A stretch of 64,000 nt of DNA from Octopus vulgaris (lineage: Eukaryota), in assembly GCA_951406725.2 (NCBI GenBank), contig OX597816.1, positions 18,042,001 to 18,106,000 on the forward strand. Reading direction: 5' to 3'. The first letter of the stretch is position 1. Each line of letters opens with the position of its first letter. This document shows positions 1 through 60,560 of the stretch, one piece after another. The position numbers and the translations under genes are program-made. Under the pieces are notes generated by a model, which did not search any database, was not told where the DNA came from, and saw nothing but the letters and a program-made list of their open reading frames with translations.

Positions 1-168
1 GATTAAAAATTAGTTGAAAGTCGAATCTCTTCGGAGGTAGTTGAAGATATAAAAATAGGTGTTCAGTTCCAACCATATAGGTAACTAACCAGTACTTTCA
101 TAGTATTTTGCTATACCTGAATGAGGTTTGTAACCTTTACTTGTGCTTATCTATCTATCTATCTATCC

Positions 169-202
<34 letters not shown>

Positions 203-203
203 A

Positions 204-251
<48 letters not shown>

Positions 252-473
252 TCAATATAGGGTGGCAAAAAAAAATGTTGTAGAATTCTTTTGCCACCAG
301 CGGCCTAGTGGGAAAAAATTAAATAGTCATAAACCATTTTTAAGTTCAACATCACAATCAAGGAACGGCCATAATAGGCCATTCACCCACTAGAAATAAC
401 AGCCAAAAGCTTTAACCGCAAAATAACGTCAATTCCGTAAACTAGGAGAAAATTGAAAAACATTTACCCTGTA

Positions 474-580
474 ATTTCTTAGACGATGCACCGTTTCATC
501 TTCTGTTTAATGGAAAACTAACCTGATTAAATTAAATCAAGCCAATCTACCATAGGCCCTTAGATTCATCAGTAAGAAAT
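474..580 (-). ncRNA. Type I hammerhead ribozyme, array copy 1
   Basis: Minus strand reads ATTTCTTA-CTGATGA-ATCT...AGAT-GAAA-CG gtgcat CG-TC-TAAGAAAT: 8-bp stem I, intact core, GUC cleavage triplet. Confidence 0.85.
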
Positions 581-965
581 AGCCAAGCCGGAACAGATAT
601 TTTTCACGAGGCATTCTCGTTGCTACCTCGTCAATATCTGACCTAAAATTTTCAAATCGTCGCACTCGCGCCAAATTTATCGGCAGCAAATAAATATAAG
701 CCGCCGATTCCATTACGGAATTAACCAGAAAATTCATAATTAATCAATATAGGGTGCCAAAAAAAAATTTTGTAGAATTCTTTTGCTACCAGCGGCCTAG
801 TGGGAAAAAATTAAATAGTCATAAACCATTTTTAAGTTCAACATCACAATCAAGGAAAGGCCATAATAGGCCATTCACCCACTAGAAATAACAGCCAAAA
901 GCTTTAACCGCAAAATAACGTCAATTCCGTAAACTAGGAGAAAATTGAAAAACATTTACCCTGTA

Positions 966-1072
966 ATTTCTTAGACGATGCACCGTTTCATCTTCTGTTT
1001 AATGGAAAACTAACCTGATTAAATTAAATCAAGCCAATCTACCATAGGCCCTTAGATTCATCAGTAAGAAAT
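966..1072 (-). ncRNA. Type I hammerhead ribozyme, array copy 2
   Basis: Same motif as 474-580. Confidence 0.85.
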
Positions 1073-1458
1073 AGCCAAGCCGGAACAGATATTTTTCACG
1101 AGGCATTCTCGTTGCTACCTCGTCAATATCTGACCTAAAATTTTCAAATCGTCGCACTCGCGCCAAATTTATCGGCAGCAAATAAATATAAGCCGCCGAT
1201 TCCATTACGGAATTAACCAGAAAATTCATAATTAATCAATATAGGGTGGCAAAAAAAAAATTTTGTAGAATTCTTTTGCCACCAGCGGCCTAGTGGGAAA
1301 AAATTAAATAGTCATAAACCATTTTTAAGTTCAACATCACAATCAAGGAACGGCCATAATAGGCCATTCACCCACTAGAAATAACAGCCAAAAGCTTTAA
1401 CCGCAAAATAACGTCAATTCCGTAAACCAGGAGAAAATTGAAAAACATTTACCCTGTA

Positions 1459-1565
1459 ATTTCTTAGACGATGCACCGTTTCATCTTCTGTTTAATGGAA
1501 AACTAACCTGATTAAATTAAATCAAGCCAATCTACCATAGGCCCTTAGATTCATCAGTAAGAAAT
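1459..1565 (-). ncRNA. Type I hammerhead ribozyme, array copy 3
   Basis: Same motif as 474-580. Confidence 0.85.
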
Positions 1566-1950
1566 AGCCAAGCCGGAACAGATATTTTTCACGAGGCATT
1601 CTCGTTGCTACCTCGTCAATATCTGACCTAAAATTTTCAAATCGTCGCACTCGCGCCAAATTTATCGGCAGCAAATAAATATAAGCCGCCGATTCCATTA
1701 CGGAATTAACCAGAAAATTCATAATTAATCAATATAGGGTGGCAAAAAAAAATTTTGTAGAATTCTTTTGCCACCAGCGGCCTAGTGGGAAAAAATTAAA
1801 TAGTCATAAACCATTTTTAAGTTCAACATCACAATCAAGGAACGGCCATAATAGGCCATTCACCCACTAGAAATAACAGCCAAAAGCTTTAACCGCAAAA
1901 TAACGTCAATTCCGTAAACCAGGAGAAAATTGAAAAACATTTACCCTGTA

Positions 1951-2057
1951 ATTTCTTAGACGATGCACCGTTTCATCTTCTGTTTAATGGAAAACTAACC
2001 TGATTAAATTAAATCAAGCCAATCTACCATAGGCCCTTAGATTCATCAGTAAGAAAT
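1951..2057 (-). ncRNA. Type I hammerhead ribozyme, array copy 4
   Basis: Same motif as 474-580. Confidence 0.85.
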
Positions 2058-2756
2058 AGCCAAGCCGGAACAGATATTTTTCACGAGGCATTCTCGTTGC
2101 TACCTCGTCAATATCTGACCTAAAATTTTCAAATCGTCGCACTCGCGCCAAATTTATCGGCAGCAAATAAATATAAGCCGCCGATTCCATTACGGAATTA
2201 ACCAGAAAATTCATAATTAATCAATATAGGGTGGCAAAAAAAAATTTTGTAGAATTCTTTGCCACCAGCGGCCTAGTGGGAAAAAATTAAATAGTCATAA
2301 ACCATTTTTAAGTTCAACATCAGGTTAGTTTTCCATTAAACAGAAGATGAAACGGTGCATCGTCTAAGAAATTACAGGGTAAATGTCTTTCAATTTTCTC
2401 CTAGTTTACGGAATTGACGTTATTTTGCGGTTAAAGCTTTTGGCTGTTATTTCTAGTGGGTGAATGGCCTATTATGGCCGTTCCTTGATTGTGATGTTGA
2501 ACTTAAAAATGGTTTATGACTATTTAATTTTTTCCCACTAGGCCGCTGGTGGCAAAAGAATTCTACAAAATTTTTTTTGCCACCCTATATTGATTAATTA
2601 TGAATTTTCTGGTTAATTCCGTAATGGAATCGGCGGCTTATATTTATTTGCTGCCGATAAATTTGGCGCGAGTGCGACGATTTGAAAATTTTAGGTCAGA
2701 TATTGACGAGGTAGCAACGAGAATGCCTCGTGAAAAATATCTGTTCCGGCTTGGCT

Positions 2757-2863
2757 ATTTCTTACTGATGAATCTAAGGGCCTATGGTAGATTGGCTTGA
2801 TTTAATTTAATCAGGTTAGTTTTCCATTAAACAGAAGATGAAACGGTGCATCGTCTAAGAAAT
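2757..2863 (+). ncRNA. Type I hammerhead ribozyme, array copy 5 (predicted cleavage after C2855)
   Basis: Stem I ATTTCTTA (2757-2764) pairs with TAAGAAAT (2856-2863). Core CTGATGA at 2765-2771. Long stem II closed by ATCT/AGAT. GAAA at 2840-2843, stem III ACG/CGT, GTC at 2853-2855. Confidence 0.87.
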
Positions 2864-3248
2864 TACAGGGTAAATGTTTTTCAATTTTCTCCTGGTTTAC
2901 GGAATTGACGTTATTTTGCGGTTAAAGCTTTTGGCTGTTATTTCTAGTGGGTGAATGGCCTATTATGGCCGTTCCTTGATTGTGATGTTGAACTTAAAAA
3001 TGGTTTATGACTATTTAATTTTTTCCCACTAGGCCGCTGGTGGCAAAAGAATTCTACAAAATTTTTTTTTGCCACCCTATATTGATTAATTATGAATTTT
3101 CTGGTTAATTCCGTAATGGAATCGGCGGCTTATATTTATTTGCTGCCGATAAATTTGGCGCGAGTGCGACGATTTGAAAATTTTAGGTCAGATATTGACG
3201 AGGTAGCAACGAGAATGCCTCGTGAAAAATATCTGTTCCGGCTTGGCT

Positions 3249-3355
3249 ATTTCTTACTGATGAATCTAAGGGCCTATGGTAGATTGGCTTGATTTAATTT
3301 AATCAGGTTAGTTTTCCATTAAACAGAAGATGAAACGGTGCATCGTCTAAGAAAT
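3249..3355 (+). ncRNA. Type I hammerhead ribozyme, array copy 6 (cleavage after 3347)
   Basis: Same motif as 2757-2863. Confidence 0.85.
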
Positions 3356-3741
3356 TACAGGGTAAATGTTTTTCAATTTTCTCCTAGTTTACGGAATTGA
3401 CGTTATTTTGCGGTTAAAGCTTTTGGCTGTTATTTCTAGTGGGTGAATGGCCTATTATGGCCGTTCCTTGATTGTGATGTTGAACTTAAAAATGGTTTAT
3501 GACTATTTAATTTTAACCCACTAGGCCGCTGGTGGCAAAAGAATTCTACAAAATTTTTTTTTTGCCACCCTATATTGATTAATTATGAATTTTCTGGTTA
3601 ATTCTGTAATGGAATCGGCGGCTTATATTTATTTGCTGCCGATAAATTTGGCGCGAGTGCGACGATTTGAAAATTTTAGGTCAGATATTGACGAGGTAGC
3701 AACGAGAATGCCTCGTGAAAAATATCTGTTCCGGCTTGGCT

Positions 3742-3848
3742 ATTTCTTACTGATGAATCTAAGGGCCTATGGTAGATTGGCTTGATTTAATTTAATCAGG
3801 TTAGTTTTCCATTAAACAGAAGATGAAACGGTGCATCGTCGAAGAAAT
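3742..3848 (+). ncRNA. Type I hammerhead ribozyme, array copy 7 (T>G at 3841 breaks the first stem I pair)
   Basis: Same motif but reads GTC-GAAGAAAT instead of GTC-TAAGAAAT. Confidence 0.75.
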
Positions 3849-4235
3849 TACAGGGTAAATGTTTTTCAATTTTCTCCTAGTTTACGGAATTGACGTTATT
3901 TTGCGGTTAAAGCTTTTGGCTGTTATTTCTAGTGGGTGAATGGCCTATTATGGCCGTTCCTTGATTGTGATGTTGAACTTAAAAATGGTTTATGACTATT
4001 TAATTTTTTCCCACTAGGCCGCTGGTGGCAAAAGAATTCTACAAAATTTTTTTTTTTGCCACCCTATATTGATTAATTATGAATTTTCTGGTTAATTCCG
4101 TAATGGAATCGGCGGCTTATATTTATTTGCTGCCGATAAATTTGGCGCGAGTGCGACGATTTGAAAATTTTAGGTCAGATATTGACGAGGTAGCAACGAA
4201 AATGCCTCGTGAAAAATATCTGTTCCGGCTTGGCT

Positions 4236-4342
4236 ATTTCTTACTGATGAATCTAAGGGCCTATGGTAGATTGGCTTGATTTAATTTAATCAGGTTAGTT
4301 TTCCATTAAACAGAAGATGAAACGGTGCATCGTCTAAGAAAT
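4236..4342 (+). ncRNA. Type I hammerhead ribozyme, array copy 8 (cleavage after 4334)
   Basis: Same motif as 2757-2863. Confidence 0.85.
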
Positions 4343-4729
4343 TACAGGGTAAATGTTTTTCAATTTTCTCCTAGTTTACGGAATTGACGTTATTTTGCGG
4401 TTAAAGCTTTTGGCTGTTATTTCTAGTGGGTGAATGGCCTATTATGGCCGTTCCTTGATTGTGATGTTGAACTTAAAAATGGTTTATGACTATTTAATTT
4501 TTTCCCACTAGGCCGCTGGTGGCAAAAGAATTCTACAAAATTTTTCTTTTTGCCACCCTATATTGATTAATTATGAATTTTCTGGTTAATTCCGTAATGG
4601 AATCGGCGGCTTATATTTATTTGCTGCCGATAAATTTGGCGCGAGTGCGACGATTTGAAAATTTTAGGTCAGATATTGACGAGGTAGCAACGAGAATGCC
4701 TCGTGAAAAATATCTGTTCCGGCTTGGCT

Positions 4730-4836
4730 ATTTCTTACTGATGAATCTAAGGGCCTATGGTAGATTGGCTTGATTTAATTTAATCAGGTTAGTTTTCCAT
4801 TAAACAGAAGATGAAACGGTGCATCGTCTAAGAAAT
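4730..4836 (+). ncRNA. Type I hammerhead ribozyme, array copy 9 (cleavage after 4828)
   Basis: Same motif as 2757-2863. Confidence 0.85.
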
Positions 4837-4959
4837 TACAGGGTAAATGTTTTTCAATTTTCTCCTAGTTTACGGAATTGACGTTATTTTGCGGTTAAAG
4901 CTTTTGGCTGTTATTTCTAGTGGGTGAATGGCCTATTATGGCCGTTCCTTGATTGTGAT

Positions 4960-5036
<77 letters not shown>

Positions 5037-11673: not shown

Positions 11674-12282
11674 AGGGCGGCAAGCTGACAGAAACATTAG
11701 CACGCCGGGCGAAATGCTGAGCAGTATTTCGTCTGACGCTACGTTCTGAGTTCAAATTCCGCCGAGGTCGACTTGCCTTTCATCTTTTCGGGGTCGATAA
11801 ATTAAGTACCAGTTACGCACTGGGGTCGGTGTAATCGATTTAATACCTATGTTTATCCTTGTTTGTCCTCTCTGTGTTTAGCCCCTTGTGGGTAGTAAAG
11901 AAATAGGTTTTTCGTCTGCCGCTACGTTCTGAGTTCAAATTGCACCAAGGTTTACTTTACCTTTCATCCTTCGAGATCGATAAATAAAGTACAAGTTACG
12001 CACTGGGATCGATGCAATCGACTTATTCCCTTTGTCTATCGTTGTTTGTTCCCTCTATGGTTAGCCCCTTGTGGTCAATAAAAAAATAAGAAACGTTAGG
12101 CCGGGCAAAATCCTTAGCGGTTTTTGGTCTGTCGTTACGTTTAATTTAAAATTCCGCCGAGGTCGATTTTGTATTTCATTCTTTCAGGATCGATTGAACA
12201 AGTACCAGTTATGACCTGAGGTCGATGTAATCGACTTAATCCTCCTGCTTGTTCCCTCTATATTTAGCCCACTGTGGGCAAT
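11674..12282 (+). mobile_element. SINE family A (tRNA-derived, Meta/Sauria-like central motif), internally multimerised
   Basis: GGCGGCGAGCTGGCAGAA...GAGTTCAAATTCCGCCGAGGTCGAC...CCTTTCATCCTTTCGGGGTCGATAAA..AAGTACCAG, core repeated three times. Diverged TSD taaatatttytgttytg. Confidence 0.85.
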
Positions 12283-24090: not shown

Positions 24091-24670
24091 AGGGTGGCGA
24101 GCTGACAGAAACGTTGGCACGCCAGGCGAAATCCTTAGTGGTATTTCCTCTGTCTTTACGTTCTGAGTTCGAATTCTGCCGAGATCGACTTTGCCTTTCA
24201 TCGTTTCGGGGCCGATTAAATAAGTACCAGTTACGCACTAGGGTCGATATGATCGACTCAATCCGTTTGTCTGTCCTTGTTTGTCCCTTCTTTGTTTAAC
24301 CCCTTGTGGGTAGTAAAAAGAAATACGTATTTCGTCTGCCGTTACATTCTGAGTTCAAATTCCGCCGAGGTCGAGTTTGCCTTTCATCCTTTCGGGGTCG
24401 ATTAAATAAGTACCAGTTACGCACTGGGGTCGATATAATCGACTTAATCCGTTTGTCTGCCCTTGTTTGTCCTCTCTGTGTATAGCCCCTTGTGGGTAGT
24501 AAAGAAATAGGTATTTCTTCTGTTTATTACGTTCTGAGTTCAAATTTCGTCGAGGTCAAATTTGCCTTTCATTCTTTCGGGGTCGATAAATTAAGCACCT
24601 GTTGTGCACGATCTAATGGACTGGGCCCCTCCCCAAAAATTTCGGGCCTTGTGTCTAGAGTAGAAAAGAT
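24091..24670 (+). mobile_element. SINE family A, internally triplicated
   Basis: Three copies of the core. TSD taatatatgacRcg at 24076-24089 and 24671-24684. Confidence 0.88.
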
Positions 24671-34607: not shown

Positions 34608-35803
34608 GTGCATCGTTCTTTGTAAAACATCTCAACTCTTAAAGTTCATGATTTTTTCCAGATATAGCTCGAACTATATACAGCTATGTATAGTCCGCCT
34701 TTGTTTCTAAAGACGTGATTTACTGCAGATTTAGCTGCTATTTCTAGTAGGTCATGCAATTAAATAGAGGTTCCGACACAGTGCATCGTTCTTCGTAAAA
34801 CATCTCAACTCTAAAAGTTTATGCTTTTTCCAGATATATTTCTTTATTGCCCACAAGGAGCTAAACGTAGAGGGGACAAACAAGGACAGACAGAGGGATT
34901 GAGTCGATTACATCGACCCCAGTGCGAAACTGGTACTTTATCTATCGATCCCGAAAGGATGAAAGGCAAAGTCGACCTCGGAGGAATTTGAACTCAGAAC
35001 GTAACGACAGACGAAATACCACTAAGTATTTCGCCCGGCGCGCTACATGTCTGCCAGCTCGCCGCCTTATGCTTTTTCCAGATCCAGCTCGAACTATATA
35101 CAGCTATGTATAGTCCGCCTTTGTTTCTAAAGATGTGATTTACTGCAGATTTAGCTGCTATTTCTAGTAGGTCATGCAATTAAATAGAGGTTCCAACACA
35201 GTGCATCGTTCTTCGTAAAACATCTCAACTCTAAAAGTTCATGCTTTTCCCAGATATATTTCTTTATTGCCCACAGTGGGCTACACACAGAGGGGACAAA
35301 CAAGGTCAGACAAACGGATTAAGTCGATTACATCGACCCTAGTACGAAAGTGGCACTTTATTTATCGATCCCGAAAGGATGAAAAGCAAATTCGACCTCG
35401 GCGGAATTTGAACTCAGAACGTAACGACAGACGAAATACCTATTTCTTTATTACCCACAAGGGGCTAAACAGAGAGGGGACAAACAAGGACAGACATAGG
35501 TATTAAGTCGATTACATCGACCCCAGTGCTTAACTGGTACTTAATTTATCGACCCCGAAACGATGAAAGGCAAAGTCGACCTCGGCGGAATTTGAACTCA
35601 CAACGTAACGCAAACGAAATACCGCTAAGCATTTCGCCCGGTGTGCTAACGTTTCTGCCAGCTCGCTGCCTTATGCTTTTTCCTGATATAGCTCGAACTA
35701 TATACAGCTATGTATAGTCCACCTTTGTTTCTAAAGATGTGATTTACTGCAGATTTAGCTGCTATTTCTAGTAGGTCATGCAATTAAATAGAGGTTCCGA
35801 CAC
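34608..35803. repeat. Three tandem 173-bp units; units 2 and 3 carry family A SINEs (minus) at the same site
   Basis: Units start at 34608, 34781 and 35201. SINEs at about 34838-35068 and 35258-35672 are flanked by ATGCTTTTYCCWGAT. Confidence 0.88.
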
Positions 35804-38217: not shown

Positions 38218-38868
38218 TTGCAAACAACTTGCACATGCAAGTGCTACCAGTTAAAAGCTCCGTATACCGGAAGCTAGCAAGTGTATGGGGTCATCAGGAG
38301 AGAATGCGCGCCGTTTCGGGGCTTACCTCTCGACGGCATCAATGCGTACCGCCCCCCCCCTCACTGATATGAGGCCCCGCTCGCTAGATCAGCTGGTTAT
38401 GAAGAACTCAATATACTTTTAGCCATCGCTCATCATCTCGTTTTAACCAAATCCAGTGGCTAGCCTTCTCCACTGTAGATTGGATATCAGTCATGGTGAT
38501 ATTGACTTTACGATAAGTTAGGCCTAACGATAACAACAGTCGTCTCACGCTGTGTCCAACAAACCCTCTACATCCGACTTCGATAGGAAAATGTTCCGCT
38601 TTCCAACCTGCGTCTTCACATTCCTCGAGGAGGTTTTCATAACGGTTCAATTTTCGAGCTCGAGCGGCGTCCGTATTATCTTCACGAGGAACCGTTAGCT
38701 CGACTATATTTACAACTTTCTTTCTTTCACACCACATCAAAATATCTGATTTTTTCGAAACTGAGATGGGAAAGAAAACCTGGCACCCAGGTAAATCTGC
38801 AGTTACCTCCCAATAGCCGTTCCACTTTTCATTTTTCTCAGGAAGTTTCTTGATCTTCTTCTTGAAAC
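38215..38868 (-). mobile_element. 5'-truncated RLE-type non-LTR retrotransposon, HERO-like (C-terminal endonuclease plus 3' UTR)
   Basis: SDILMW..ELTVPRED...A.ARK..RY..L...C...GW....PIEVGCRGF...EKASHWIWLKR (ORF 38408-38740) fits the HERO restriction-like endonuclease tail. Flanked by TA repeats. Confidence 0.8.
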
Positions 38869-39008
38869 ATATATATATTTCTTATATTTCTTACTATTTG
38901 TCACGTGGCGAGAAGCGTGTGTGTTCAAGACAATGACAACCACCATACCCTATACATTTCTTCATATATTTATTCAAGAATGATCTGTTCTGCTCAATTA
39001 AACACAGT

Positions 39009-40454: not shown

Positions 40455-43400
40455 CTGACAGATCCCGTCTTTTTCCCTTTCTTTTCGTTTCCTTCTCCGT
40501 ATTTTATTCTCATTATTTCGAACTAATACAGACACAGTAAGCCTTGAAGAAAGGTAGAGGAGGAAAGGAAAAAAAAAAAAAAATGTCCGGAGATAAAACT
40601 ATCAACAAAAAAAAATACAGACGAATATAGATCTGCTAGTCTTAAGAAGCGGCGCTATGAGCAATGCTTACATGTAGTGAACCCTAAACTGACAGATCCA
40701 TCTCCTAATATAAGAATGGATGCTCGTCATGCTTCAAGGTCAACAAATCAAACAATAAACCGCATTGGTCATTGCGCGGATTACAAAAGACCACGTACCC
40801 GAAAATTGAACCAAATCCTGATTGAAAAATCAGTTACTGGATCAAATCTTCCCAACACACAGGAGCTGGACGAACCCCACAACCGGAATATTCCAACAGA
40901 TGGCCATCCATGCTCATCACCAAATAATCAAAAGAAAAAGAAGGAAAAATGGTCTAGGGAAGATAATAAAGAAGTTCTTGAGGCCTTCTACCATGCCATA
41001 TATTTCCCCACAGATAAGTCTAGCACTGTACAAGCATACTTAAACTGGAGACAGAAACACCCTGAAGTAAGACCCTACATAGACAGTAACAAGCTTGCCA
41101 ATGTTAGAAGAAACATTATAAAAAAGAAATTACTGACTGAAGTAGAGATTGATCAGGTTAGACAAGCAATATCGGATAAAATGAACGAAGCTGCAGCTAG
41201 AGAAGATAATACAGAGGAAATGATTATAGACCAGCCCAGGGTGGATAAAAACGAAGAGAGGATTGAAAGAGTTAGTATAAGTGATAGGCAAAGTGAAATA
41301 CGCCCTGAACCAATCATAAACACTAAGACAGATGAGCATCAAATAGATAAAGAAAGTCACACAAATATTGACCCAACAGAACTACATGAGCTAAAAAATC
41401 AAATCATGATTGAATGGCTGAAAATTAAAGAAACCAGCATGGATGAGCGTGATACACTTCCTAAAATCCGCAACTCTAACCAAAACATGAAAATAATTGG
41501 TAAAATCCGGCTTGCACTTAAGGATATAATTTCAGTTAATGATGTTGATATCACAAACCTCAACCACCTATACTATGCATCCGCGAAAATCTCAACGATC
41601 TTATGTGGTGTAAAGATTAGAAAACGGCAACAGTCCCACAAAAAGCCTTCTTGGCAAGAGCGTCTGCAACAACAAATTAAAATATTTAGATCTGACATTG
41701 AATATTTGAAAAACCTTAAGGCTCACAAAACTACCAAACCTACAAAAACCCAAAAATTACTGAAAAAATACAATATGAAAACTATACTTGATATTGATGC
41801 CACCATAGAAACCATCAAACAAAAGGTATCTGCCAAAGCTGCCCGCATAGCGAGGTATGAAAAGCGTGTTAGATTTTTCAAGGACAACAACATGTTCAAA
41901 AATAACACCAAGAATTTTTACAGGAAGATAGGAAAAACAGCGTTTACTGCAGGGTCTGTACCATCAAAAGAAGAAGTGCAGAGATTTTGGAATAAAATCT
42001 GGGCAGAAGAAAAAACACACAACGAAAAGGCCCCCTGGATTGACAGAATATCTACAGAACTGGACCCCTTAGAAGAGCAAAAGTGGGAGGGTGTCAAGGT
42101 AGAAGATATAAGATCTGCTCTAAGGAGGTCAAGCAAATGGAAGTCTCCAGGAAAGGATAAAATTCCTAACTTCTGGCTGAATGCCTTCCCAGAGAGCCAT
42201 GAACTGCTAACAGAACTGTACAATGATGTTTTGCAACACCCTAGTAGGATGCCTCCTTGGCTAGTTAATGGGTTAACATTCCTGCTTCCAAAAAGTGAAG
42301 AAACAAATGAACCAAAAAACTATAGACCCATAACCTGCTTAACAACTATGTACAAAACACTAACATCTGTCCTGACGGAATATACCTATAGTTTTTTAAC
42401 AGACAGCAGCATATTCCCTAATGAACAGAAAGGATGTAAACGTGGATCCTACGGCTGTAAAGACCAACTACTCATCAATAAGATGATCTTAGAAGATTGT
42501 CACAAACGACACAAAAACTTATCAATAGCCTGGATAGACTATAAAAAGGCTTTTGATAGCCTACCACATAGCTGGATTAGGAAATGCCTTGAAATGTATA
42601 AGATAGCACCAACTCTGCGAAACTTTTTGACTGTAAGTATGAGATCATGGAGAACCACACTAACTCTGAACAGTGACAGTGAATCCCTAAATGCTGGTGA
42701 TGTAAAAATTTCGTGTGGCATTTTCCAGGGTGACTCACTGTCACCACTCCTCTTTTGTTTATCCTTAATACCTCTCTCAAAGCTGCTCAATGACGCGCAG
42801 TACGGGTATAAAATGTTTGATAAAAATATAAATCATCTCGTTTACATGGATGATTTAAAGCTTTTTGCAAAAAATGATCAACAACTCAAGGGCTTACTAG
42901 CGATAGTCAAACAATTCAGTGACGACATCAGAATGCAATTCGGCCTCGATAAATGTGCAAAGGCTACCTTTATCAAAGGAAAAATGACAGAAACATCTAA
43001 AGTTAACCTTGACCAACAGAATGTCATAAAAGAACTAGACCCAGCGGAGAGCTACAGGTACCTAGGGGTAATTGAAGGGAACGGAATAAGGCATTCAGAG
43101 ATGAAGGAAAGGATCAGGAGAGAATGCTATCGAAGAGTGAGAGCAATACTCAAGACAGAGCTGAATGCAAGAAACAGGATCGAAGCAATCAATGCATTAG
43201 CTATACCAGTCGTGACTTACAGTTTCAATATTGTTAACTGGTCAATTACTGAAATATGTCAGCTCGACAGAAAAATAAGGAAACTGTTGACAATGCATAG
43301 AATGCACCACCCTAAGGCAGATACAGAACGACTCTATCTGCCAAGAAAAGAGGGAGGCCGTGGTCTTTTGCAACTGGCAATAACAATGAAGATTGCTACA

Positions 43401-44620
43401 ATTGGCCTAGACACCTACCTGAAAAACTCTGAGGACTGGATGTTAAAACTTGTCTCAAAACATGAAAACAAGAAAGCATCATACTCAGTCACAAAACAGG
43501 CAAAGGAATATCTAAGTGAATTCCGAATACAACCAATTTCGGAATTAGAGATAGATATACAAGAAACAAGCACAGAAAAAGCTAGGCGCATGAAAACCCG
43601 TGCCAAAACTGCGGCCTTAGATATTCTGAATAATAAATGGCAAGAAAAACCTCTCTATGGCAAATACCCAAAGAGAGCGAATAATGCAGATATCGACAAA
43701 GCCCTGACCCATCAATGGCTAATGGCCTCTGGCTTAAAATCTGAAACAGAGGGGTTTATCATAGCAGCTCAAGATCAATGCCTACCAACAAGAAACTACC
43801 AGGCCAACATATTAAAGATCAGAAGCAGTCCAACGTGTCGTGTATGCAAGCAACAAAATGAAACCATTGACCATGTGGTCTCCAAGTGCAGTCTTCTAGC
43901 GCCTACAGAGTATCTCAACAGGCACGATAGAGCTGCACAATATATTCACTGGGTAATCTGTAAAAACCTGGATTTGCCCCATGAAAAAAACTGGTGGGAA
44001 CACAAACCACCTCCAGTGCTTGAAAATGACCACATCTCACTCCTCTGGAACTTCACCATTCAAACTGACAGGAAGATAGATGCAAATAGGCCAGACATCA
44101 TATTGAAAGACTTCAAACAAAGAACATGCCTCCTCATTGATATGACTGTCCCAATCGATATAAACGTATCTGTCAAGACCTACCAAAAACTGAGCAAATA
44201 TAAAGATCTTGAAATAGAAATCAGCAAAATGTGGAAGCTGAAGACTAAAACAATACCTGTTGTCATAGGTGCCCTGGGAATGATAGCAAAAGGGGCTGAT
44301 AGCTACCTAACTCAGATACCAGGAAACCCAAAAATGGCAGAAGTTCAAAAGATAGTGCTCATGGGAACTGCTCATATCCTACGCAAAATACTCTCTATGT
44401 AATCTCAAGGTTTAAAACAAACATAATTTTCGGTTTAAAAAAAAAAAAAAAAAAACTTTTTTTTTTTTTTAGACATTCATTAGTACAACATCCCCACCCC
44501 CCAAATATATGGCACACTAGGCATAACAACAACATGAACTTCCAACCCTGTTGTCTCTTGAGGTCTCTGGGTGAGACTTGGAGCCAACTTGTACAAATAT
44601 AAAGCAAAAGTCAAACATAG
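40455..44620 (+). mobile_element. Apparently full-length R4/Dong-clade non-LTR retrotransposon inserted in (TAA)n
   Basis: Single long RT-RLE ORF. The 5' flank is aataacaataataa and the 3' end runs into aataataataataat at 44621. Dong elements are known to target TAA repeats. Confidence 0.88.
40716..44402 (+). CDS. Reverse transcriptase / CCHC zinc knuckle / restriction-like endonuclease polyprotein (1228 aa from the first ATG; frame open from 40677)
   Basis: Motifs WKSPGKD, NYRPITCL, IDYKKAFDS, GIFQGDSLSP, YMDD, YRYLG, CRVC..ETIDHVVSKC, RHD, NRPDI..IDMTVP and KYKDL. No stops or frameshifts. Confidence 0.95.
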   Translation: MDARHASRSTNQTINRIGHCADYKRPRTRKLNQILIEKSVTGSNLPNTQELDEPHNRNIPTDGHPCSSPNNQKKKKEKWSREDNKEVLEAFYHAIYFPTDKSSTVQAYLNWRQKHPEVRPYIDSNKLANVRRNIIKKKLLTEVEIDQVRQAISDKMNEAAAREDNTEEMIIDQPRVDKNEERIERVSISDRQSEIRPEPIINTKTDEHQIDKESHTNIDPTELHELKNQIMIEWLKIKETSMDERDTLPKIRNSNQNMKIIGKIRLALKDIISVNDVDITNLNHLYYASAKISTILCGVKIRKRQQSHKKPSWQERLQQQIKIFRSDIEYLKNLKAHKTTKPTKTQKLLKKYNMKTILDIDATIETIKQKVSAKAARIARYEKRVRFFKDNNMFKNNTKNFYRKIGKTAFTAGSVPSKEEVQRFWNKIWAEEKTHNEKAPWIDRISTELDPLEEQKWEGVKVEDIRSALRRSSKWKSPGKDKIPNFWLNAFPESHELLTELYNDVLQHPSRMPPWLVNGLTFLLPKSEETNEPKNYRPITCLTTMYKTLTSVLTEYTYSFLTDSSIFPNEQKGCKRGSYGCKDQLLINKMILEDCHKRHKNLSIAWIDYKKAFDSLPHSWIRKCLEMYKIAPTLRNFLTVSMRSWRTTLTLNSDSESLNAGDVKISCGIFQGDSLSPLLFCLSLIPLSKLLNDAQYGYKMFDKNINHLVYMDDLKLFAKNDQQLKGLLAIVKQFSDDIRMQFGLDKCAKATFIKGKMTETSKVNLDQQNVIKELDPAESYRYLGVIEGNGIRHSEMKERIRRECYRRVRAILKTELNARNRIEAINALAIPVVTYSFNIVNWSITEICQLDRKIRKLLTMHRMHHPKADTERLYLPRKEGGRGLLQLAITMKIATIGLDTYLKNSEDWMLKLVSKHENKKASYSVTKQAKEYLSEFRIQPISELEIDIQETSTEKARRMKTRAKTAALDILNNKWQEKPLYGKYPKRANNADIDKALTHQWLMASGLKSETEGFIIAAQDQCLPTRNYQANILKIRSSPTCRVCKQQNETIDHVVSKCSLLAPTEYLNRHDRAAQYIHWVICKNLDLPHEKNWWEHKPPPVLENDHISLLWNFTIQTDRKIDANRPDIILKDFKQRTCLLIDMTVPIDINVSVKTYQKLSKYKDLEIEISKMWKLKTKTIPVVIGALGMIAKGADSYLTQIPGNPKMAEVQKIVLMGTAHILRKILSM

Positions 44621-59384: not shown

Positions 59385-60560
59385 AAATTTCTTCCACAAG
59401 GGTAATAATTTGGGGGGGAGAGAGACTAGTCGATTATATCGACCCAAGTGTTTCACTGGTACTTATTTTATCGACCCCAAAACAATGAAAGCAAAGTTGA
59501 CCTCGGCGGCATTTGAAGGTTCTGAATTCAAATTCCGCCAAGATCGACTTTGCCTTTCATCCTTTCGGGATCGATTAAGTACCAGTGAAACACTGGGGTC
59601 GAGTCGATGTAATCGACTAATTCTCTCTCCCAAAATTTCAGGACTTGTACATATAGTACAAGGATTAACAATAATAATAAAAAAATAATCCTTTCCACTA
59701 TAGGCACAAGGCCTGAAATTTGGGGGAGGAGGCTAGTCGATCACATCAACCCCAGTGTTTCACTGGTACTTAATTTATCGACACCGAAAGGAGGAAATGC
59801 AAAGTCGACCTCAGCGGAATATGAATTCAGAACGTGAAGACGGACGAAACAACGCTAAGTTTTTCATCCGACGTGATAACGGTTCTGCTATCTCACCGCC
59901 TTAATATTACTGTTGTAAGGCGATGGGCTGGCAGAATCGTTAGCTCATTGTGCAAAATGCTTTTGCTTTCTGCGTTCAAATTCTGCCGAGGTCGACTTTG
60001 CCTTTCATCCTTTCGAAGTCGAGAAATTAAATACCAGTGAAAAAATTATCGTCTAGTTCCCTCCCCACAAATTTGAGGCCCTTTTACTCTAGTATTAAAG
60101 GATCATTATTATCATTATTATTAAGAGGAGCAGGCTGCATCGTGTGCGCGTCTTATATAATGTCTAAATTCAGATAAAATTCAAGCTTTACGTGTTCCAA
60201 GGTCAGATTCCACCGAGGTCGACTTTTCCTTTCATCCTTTCTGAGTCGATAAATTAAGTACCATTCGAACACTGGAATCGATGTAATCGACTAGTTCTCT
60301 CCCCACAAATTTGAGGCCCTCTGCCTCCAGTAGTAGAGAATCATTATTATAATTATTATTAAGAGTTGTTGGCTGAATCGTGATCGCGTCTTATACAATG
60401 CCTAAAGTCAGATAAAATTCAAGCGTTACGTGTTCCGAATTCAAAGTCCACCGACGTCGACTCTGCCTTTGGTACATTCGACGTCGATAAAATAATTACC
60501 AGTACGGCACTGGAGTCGATGTAATCTACTTACACTTCCTATCAAAATTGATGACATTGT
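59385..60560. mobile_element. Cluster of SINE family A copies, including a tandem duplication of about 238 bp (60053-60530)
   Basis: Multiple cores in both orientations. ctagttcyctccccacaaatttgaggccc repeats at 60053 and 60291. Confidence 0.8.

What the first reader, a model, noticed from the sequence alone, without database searches (positions are those of the whole stretch)
2406..2863. Unit hairpins carry G-U wobbles on one strand only, evidence of selection on a folded RNA
Seen on the ribozyme strand: stem II extension ATGGTAGATTGGCTTGATT/AATCAGGTTAGTTTTCCAT (18 of 19 paired, five G-U), GAATGGCC/GGCCGTTC, ATCGGCGGC/GCTGCCGAT, GGTGGCAAAAGAATT/AATTTTTTTTGCCACC and TTACGGAATTGAC/GTTAATTCCGTAA. 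CTAGTGGG/CCCACTAG and CAGATATT-ACGAGG/CCTCGT-AATATCTG also pair. The imperfections are mostly G-U on this strand and would be A-C mismatches on the other. Inference: the unit is a compact, branched, viroid-like RNA, and the functional polarity is the hammerhead strand.
Basis: partly seen in the sequence, partly recalled or inferred. Interest (0 to 1): 0.7.

Follow-up and report, generated by a model that had tools for sequence, protein, structure and literature searches.

The report
Folded hammerhead retrozyme, two-armed Penelope insertions
The hairpins are real and are conserved by compensating base changes in a 492-base non-coding repeat that carries a hammerhead self-cutting RNA motif; it is a new member of a known class of animal jumping repeats (retrozymes), and its back-to-back arrays ending at two fixed points suggest that it is likely copied from RNA by a Penelope-type enzyme.

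Summary
The named helices are all present: nine G-U, one U-U, no A-C. They lie in a 492-nt tandem unit with a type I hammerhead. Circular folding beats shuffles on both strands (z -5.8 and -3.8); about 72% of the strand gap is base composition, and G-U pairs are not enriched over shuffles, so one copy does not prove selection. Sister subfamilies do support it: two-sided changes 42 vs 15.7 expected; inherited G-U:A-C states 23:10 vs 25:31 expected (smaller samples not significant). Stronger polarity evidence comes from the insertions: 34 of 40 loci are back-to-back arrays, nearly all in (TA)n, and 31 of these end once at unit nt ~131 and once at ~238, the Penelope-like 'tail' footprint, here ~107 nt. 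Verdict: a non-LTR retrozyme, likely mobilised by a Penelope-like element; not a viroid. Cleavage, expression, circularity and the partner enzyme are unshown. The scan noted the same architecture before, in this genome and others (e1-8672319, e1-8671497).

The parts
148..246 (.). (TATC)n then (TA)n microsatellite, left target flank
247..2322 (-). Left arm, 4.2 tandem units; outer (RNA 3') end at site S2, unit nt ~235-238; inner end truncated at nt 128
   Evidence: (L070)
2319..2322 (.). Junction of the two arms, 4-nt microhomology
2319..4960 (+). Right arm, 5.4 tandem units; inner end at unit nt 447; outer (RNA 3') end at site S1, nt ~131-132
   Evidence: (L070)
2365..2855 (+). One monomer between predicted cleavage sites (after 2364 and after 2855); contains the finding
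   Evidence: cleavage position inferred from the hammerhead consensus (recalled)
2406..2624 (+). Long-range helix 2406-2418/2612-2624 closing the domain that holds both end sites; one G-U, A-U/U-A covariation
2453..2541 (+). Helix 2453-2460/2534-2541 enclosing hairpin 2462-2469/2476-2483 and site S1
2495..2495 (+). Site S1 (unit nt 131): fixed outer end of one arm, inferred reverse-transcription start, 12 nt 3' of a hairpin
2496..2601 (+). About 107-nt 'tail' between S1 and S2, containing hairpin 2548-2560/2572-2584
2601..2601 (+). Site S2 (unit nt ~238): fixed outer end of the other arm, inferred second start, 17 nt 3' of a hairpin, unpaired in the predicted fold
2629..2658 (+). Hairpin 2629-2637/2650-2658, one G-U; G-C/G-U/A-U series across subfamilies
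2697..2743 (+). Interrupted hairpin 2697-2704/2736-2743 and 2706-2711/2726-2731; least conserved of the named helices (71-85% of cells paired)
2757..2863 (+). Type I hammerhead motif: stem I 2757-2764/2856-2863, core 2765-2771, stem II 2772-2775/2836-2839 with extension 2784-2802/2809-2827, GAAA 2840-2843, stem III 2843-2846/2851-2854 with palindromic 4-nt loop, predicted cut after 2855
4962..5017 (.). (TA)n microsatellite, right target flank

Best explanation
The stretch is one unit of a young non-coding tandem repeat with a type I hammerhead motif and conserved hairpins (a non-LTR retrozyme), whose RNA is likely self-cut to monomers, probably circularised, and likely copied into (TA)n microsatellites by a Penelope-like reverse transcriptase/endonuclease. 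Shown in the genome: the unit, its covarying helices, dispersal over many chromosomes, back-to-back arms with one end at S1 and one at S2, ragged inner ends with short overlaps, and the same sequence variant in both arms. Inferred: both nicked target strands prime cDNA on the hammerhead-strand RNA, one at S1 and one at S2; each cDNA runs through several units (rolling circle, or an uncut multimer) and stops at random; the two cDNAs are joined in the middle. The hairpins are inferred to be kept because the RNA must fold for cleavage, stability and enzyme binding; G-U is tolerated on that strand and A-C is selected against.
For: Hammerhead core invariant and stems I-III covary in 18 copies: 50 two-sided cells vs 17.4 +/- 3.2, 0 of 500 shuffles. 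At 62 pairs that are Watson-Crick in this copy and in most of 102 loci, inherited G-U:A-C = 30:18 (3 or more loci, p 0.035), 23:10 (5 or more, p 0.004), 16:6 (8 or more, p 0.02) against about 1:1 from loop columns. 922 candidates in the genome; of the 40 scored loci 34 are divergent, 31 of these S1+S2, none S1/S1 or S2/S2; both flanks TA-rich in 37 of 40; arms agree in diagnostic variants in 22 of 24 informative loci. Five loci carry a variant private among the 40 in every covering unit of both arms. Sister subfamilies at 71-77% identity keep both end sites: 12 of 13 divergent loci S1+S2 among 20. The genome has young intact RT + GIY-YIG elements in (TA)n with a ~30-nt tail; 2 of 2 divergent copies end S1+S2. 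Papers: inverted truncated copy plus tail is typical of PLEs (10.1101/2021.04.23.441226); the tail lies between two internal RT starts and both strands are cut and extended (PMC11167929).
Against: No cleavage, expression or circular RNA shown; no run on record as RNA was listed. Rfam gives no match at gathering score and only 14 bits, E 8.7, to Hammerhead_3. No autonomous element with a pLTR like this unit among 40 GIY-YIG loci; the tail (~107 nt) is about three times that of the three local PLE families seen (~30-42 nt). This very array is mixed for one variant (7 of 10 units, both arms), and two others show 4-unit periodicity, which a single homogeneous monomer circle does not explain. G-U vs A-C was not significant in smaller tests: 13:7 p 0.30, 7:7, 14:7 p 0.08. 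The strand gap exceeds composition by more than 2 sd in only 2 of 7 sister copies. One sister locus (L151) ends S2/S2. None of the covariation tests corrects for relatedness. The active hammerhead fold is 6.2 kcal/mol above the predicted minimum.
Confidence: 0.82

Rival explanations
1. Same element and enzyme, but the template is an uncut linear multimer transcribed from a source array; the hammerhead and circle are dispensable for insertion.
For: Mixed variants within this array and 4-unit periodicity in L045 and L047. In the anole PLE, hammerhead mutants did not affect insertion in vitro (PMC11167929). Eight of nine Xenopus dimers did not cleave (10.64898/2026.07.22.740005).
Against: Hammerhead core and stems are conserved with covariation over subfamilies of 63% mean column identity; five loci are uniform for a private variant across both arms; the variant order in the two arms of this array does not match.
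Confidence: 0.25
2. The hairpins and G-U asymmetry are by-products: DNA palindromes in a satellite plus G/T strand skew, or A-to-I editing fixed by reverse transcription, with no selection on RNA fold.
For: About 72% of the strand gap is compositional and G-U is not enriched over shuffles; the minus strand also folds better than shuffles; private variants are not depleted in stems (71 of 104 paired, 57% expected).
Against: Two-sided changes far above controls; A-C depleted among inherited states; no A>G excess among private variants (7 A>G vs 8 T>C); private variants arise after insertion and need not be selected.
Confidence: 0.06
3. The unit is an endogenised viroid-like replicon that replicates RNA-to-RNA and is only occasionally reverse-transcribed.
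For: Compact, self-paired, hammerhead-bearing and of viroid-like size.
Against: Hammerhead core in one polarity only; hundreds of 97-100% identical DNA copies with a retroelement footprint; related copies in contigs of other organisms.
Confidence: 0.05
4. A LINE-type enzyme (for example the intact R2/Hero-like element at window 40548-44402) mobilises the unit by ordinary twin priming.
For: Divergent arms with short junction overlaps resemble twin priming (recalled); such an element is intact in this window.
Against: Twin priming (recalled) has one fixed 3' end and a variable internal start; here both outer ends are fixed and paired, as in local PLEs; no poly(A) ends.
Confidence: 0.05

Closest known systems
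Animal non-LTR retrozymes (Cervera and de la Pena 2020, PMC7229834; Li, Clavereau and Pollet 2026, 10.64898/2026.07.22.740005)
   Same: Tandem non-coding units, one type I hammerhead each, GC under 50%, highly self-paired predicted circle, PLEs in the same genome.
   Different: Unit 492 nt (170-400 nt in the 2020 paper; 51-972 in the 2026 one); very long stem II extension; back-to-back arms with two fixed paired ends in (TA)n are not described in the sections I read; no cephalopod retrozyme paper in my searches.
Penelope-like elements, EN+ clades (Craig et al. 2021, 10.1101/2021.04.23.441226; Poseidon PAc, Frangieh et al. 2024, PMC11167929)
   Same: Partial tandems, inverted 5'-truncated copy, optional tail between two internal RT starts downstream of a hammerhead, AT-rich or microsatellite targets.
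   Different: No ORF; tail about 107 nt rather than 30-40 nt; canonical full-size hammerhead rather than the minimal type; multi-unit arrays on both arms; no sequence match to the local PLE ends tested.
Hammerhead viroids and viroid-like RNAs (recalled)
   Same: Small, branched, self-paired, hammerhead-bearing.
   Different: Integrated as many near-identical DNA copies; hammerhead on one strand only; no sign of RNA-to-RNA replication tested.

Membership tests
Non-LTR retrozyme | Tandem repeats with a type I hammerhead in consecutive units | tested here: met
   Nine cores in the array, one per unit; covariation. Below Rfam thresholds.
Non-LTR retrozyme | Small non-coding unit, GC below 50%, no LTR-type organisation | tested here: met
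   492 nt, 36.6% GC; no real ORF of 150 aa or more in 247-4960. Slightly longer than the 2020 range.
Non-LTR retrozyme | Highly self-paired predicted circle | tested here: met
Non-LTR retrozyme | Dispersed multi-copy family co-occurring with PLEs | tested here: met
Non-LTR retrozyme | Self-cleavage at the hammerhead | not testable with these tools
   Needs in vitro transcription.
Non-LTR retrozyme | Expressed as linear and circular monomer RNA | not tested
   No holder on record as RNA; no RNA reads were laid on the unit.
Non-LTR retrozyme | Target-site duplication where present | tested here: inconclusive
   Flanks are (TA)n, so a duplication cannot be told.
Non-autonomous Penelope-like element | Inverted 5'-truncated copy and partial tandems | tested here: met
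   34 of 40 loci.
Non-autonomous Penelope-like element | Two alternative 3' ends separated by a tail (30-40 nt in known PLEs) | tested here: met
   S1 and S2, 31 of 34 paired; tail about 107 nt, longer than published.
Non-autonomous Penelope-like element | Terminal sequence shared with an autonomous family | tested here: not met
   No pLTR-like match in 40 GIY-YIG loci, which sample few families out of 6136 candidates; partner unidentified.
Viroid or viroid-like replicon | No DNA form; hammerheads usually in both polarities (recalled) | tested here: not met
   Integrated DNA family; core on one strand only.
Viroid or viroid-like replicon | RNA-to-RNA replication and infectivity | not testable with these tools
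   Needs strand-specific RNA data and transmission tests.

The most novel reading that the evidence does not exclude
A Penelope-type enzyme dimer grips one small ribozyme-made RNA circle at two hairpin-plus-linker modules about 107 nt apart, primes both cut DNA strands at once, one at each module, and rolls round the circle in both reactions; the covarying hairpins are the positioning signal, so retrozyme arrays are born whole in one insertion rather than grown by later local amplification.
Probability: 0.45. Interest if true: 0.65.

Novelty: new member of a known kind. Interest (0 to 1): 0.42.

Why it matters
The folded hammerhead unit itself is a known kind of element. What adds value is the footprint: the 2020 paper proposes PLEs as the mobiliser and the 2026 preprint says the mechanism remains to be elucidated and invokes later local amplification for arrays. 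A near-obligate S1+S2 pairing with shared variants in both arms gives exact predicted start sites and a short template for an in vitro test of how PLE tails and inverted copies arise, and the covariation gives a structure model to mutate.

Tried and rejected
G-U count in a single copy as evidence: rejected, composition explains it. A crude strand-blind helix finder picked chance helices and gave G-U:A-C 7:7. The four HHR_III rows were mis-anchored and are ignored; one search had a column offset and crashed, redone. A-to-I editing origin of wobbles: no A>G excess. Variants within the young family cannot show selection. Partner search: the 781-aa PLE family, and the families of L137, L139, L140, show no pLTR similarity; apparent links at L138, L103 and L074 were an unrelated palindrome and separate small insertions. 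L182 joins a PLE end to a retrozyme arm by 5-nt microhomology, one case, ambiguous. Rfam did not call the ribozyme. No RNA holder listed, so expression is open. The supplement of PMC7229834 could not be read and bioRxiv supplements are closed; they may list cephalopod retrozymes or end structures. Look-up of earlier findings by sequence was empty.

Full report
What is there. Window 247-4960 is a tandem repeat of a 492-494 bp unit in two divergent arms, 4.2 units on the minus strand and 5.4 on the plus strand, between (TA)n tracts. Each unit has a type I hammerhead core, with predicted cuts after 2364, 2855, 3347, 3840, 4334, 4828 and after 1959, 1467, 974, 482 on the minus strand (the consensus numbering is recalled). 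Rfam does not call it at gathering score and gives 14 bits, E 8.7 to Hammerhead_3. The genome is 2.8 Gb in 227 contigs; that it is octopus-like is my recall of its repeats and the wording of earlier notes, not a tool result.

The observation. The strand gap is -49.4 kcal/mol, but shuffles give -35.5 +/- 5.6, and G-U pairs are 15% of pairs against 19.6% in shuffles. In seven sister copies the plus strand had z -4.0 to -7.8 and the minus strand -1.7 to -6.7; the gap exceeded composition by more than 2 sd in 2 of 7. One copy therefore shows a well-folding RNA but not, by its wobbles, selection or polarity.

Comparative test. The young family (922 candidates, 40 scored) is 97-100% identical and uninformative: 71 of 104 private variants fall in paired positions (57% expected) and there is no A>G excess. 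Patterns on stem III found older subfamilies (469 and 7 matches, 0 in the reversed controls), 71-77% identical in 16 monomers, and further copies by DNA search. On 18 hammerheads the stems show 50 two-sided cells vs 17.4 +/- 3.2 (0 of 500) though pairs with such changes are 12 vs 9.6 (32 of 500). At 5 loci G-U is near its expected count (23 vs 25.5) and A-C is a third of it (10 vs 30.9). Consensus folding also favours the plus strand (-52.1 vs -36.0). These tests do not correct for relatedness and the helices were chosen on the plus strand, so the support is good, not final.

Insertion anatomy. I fetched all 40 scored loci, the best-matching and so biased to long young arrays. 34 are divergent; 31 of them have one outer end at unit nt 126-137 (S1) and the other at 231-244 (S2), three have S2 plus an off-site end, none is S1/S1 or S2/S2; six are single-armed; both flanks are TA-rich in 37 of 40. 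Inner ends are scattered over the unit; BLAST overlaps at the junction are 1-8 nt in 23 of 34, 0 in 3, longer in 2, with extra bases in 6. Arm lengths do not differ by site (medians 903 and 1038). Arms agree in diagnostic variants in 22 of 24 informative loci; five loci have a variant private among the 40 in every covering unit of both arms, but this window's array is mixed at one site (7 of 10 units) and two arrays show 4-unit periodicity. Among 20 sister-subfamily loci, which I picked partly for two-strand hits, 13 are divergent and 12 of these are S1+S2; L151 is S2/S2. Fixed 3' ends at the target and ragged 5' ends mark the hammerhead strand as the template, independently of wobbles (inference from target-primed reverse transcription).

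Candidate machinery. GIY-YIG search gave 148 matches among 150 scored of 6136 candidates, many in an intact 781-aa RT + GIY-YIG frame with a CxxC linker motif that I recall as Neptune/Nematis-like. These sit in (TA)n, have two ends about 30 nt apart, and 2 of 2 divergent copies end S1+S2. Two other PLE families have tails of about 30 and 42 nt. None shares sequence with the unit. At L182 a PLE arm runs at its own first end site straight into a retrozyme arm through 5 nt of microhomology: either a template switch or a later insertion. Related copies exist in contigs of four runs labelled as other organisms.

Literature. PMC7229834 (read: parts 2-4 of 6, results and discussion; supplement unreadable): non-LTR retrozymes, expressed as self-paired circles, PLEs proposed as mobiliser. 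10.64898/2026.07.22.740005 (parts 1-3 of 5): retrozymes related to PLE pLTRs, mechanism open, one of nine dimers cleaved. 10.1101/2021.04.23.441226 (passages): inverted truncated copy, 30-40 bp tail, microsatellite bias. PMC11167929 (parts 1-2 of 4): both strands cut and extended, two internal starts bound the tail, dimer predicted, hammerhead not needed in vitro. PMC4209133 (passages): palindromic loop III and dimeric hammerheads. Six searches (listings only) showed no paper on a cephalopod retrozyme or on paired two-site ends in retrozymes; closed supplements and subscription papers were not seen. After I had reached this reading, the scan's notes showed the same architecture reported for a ~495-nt unit in this genome and for other units elsewhere; these are not independent evidence.

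Verdict. Observation confirmed, interpretation partly supported. A new member of the non-LTR retrozymes that works like a non-autonomous PLE; formal PLE-family membership lacks an identified partner. Cleavage, expression and circularity are inferred. Interest 0.42; the most novel reading (two-site priming on one circle) 0.45 likely, 0.65 if true.

Noticed in passing
window 40548-44402 (+): Intact 1284-aa frame with RVT_1 and zf-RVT and a C-terminal restriction-like endonuclease motif (recalled): an R2/Hero-like non-LTR retrotransposon.
   Followed up: partly
window 38408-38881 (-): 157-aa fragment resembling the C-terminal endonuclease region of another such retrotransposon (by eye).
   Followed up: no
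L182 1270-2400 (-), G000:C5:125648037-125651000: Two-armed PLE insertion whose minus arm joins a retrozyme arm at the PLE's first end site by 5-nt microhomology, no TA spacer: possible template-switch chimera pointing to a partner family.
   Followed up: partly
L124 1244-6460: Young Neptune-like PLE family with an upstream 479-aa frame overlapping the 781-aa RT/GIY-YIG frame, a variant minimal hammerhead-like motif in the pLTR and a 30-nt tail.
   Followed up: partly
L047 and L045: Private variants repeat with a period of four units: local duplication or a multimeric template.
   Followed up: no
L032 5244-5252: A single-looking arm is followed by a 9-nt piece ending at S1, a minimal second arm.
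   Followed up: no
L235 3313-3439 and L224: Pieces of different subfamilies lie close together or joined at some loci, suggesting repeated insertion at the same microsatellites or recombinant templates.
   Followed up: no
window 11727-12088, 24141-24603, 35257-35623, 59986-60530: Tandem copies of a ~185-bp SINE-like repeat.
   Followed up: no
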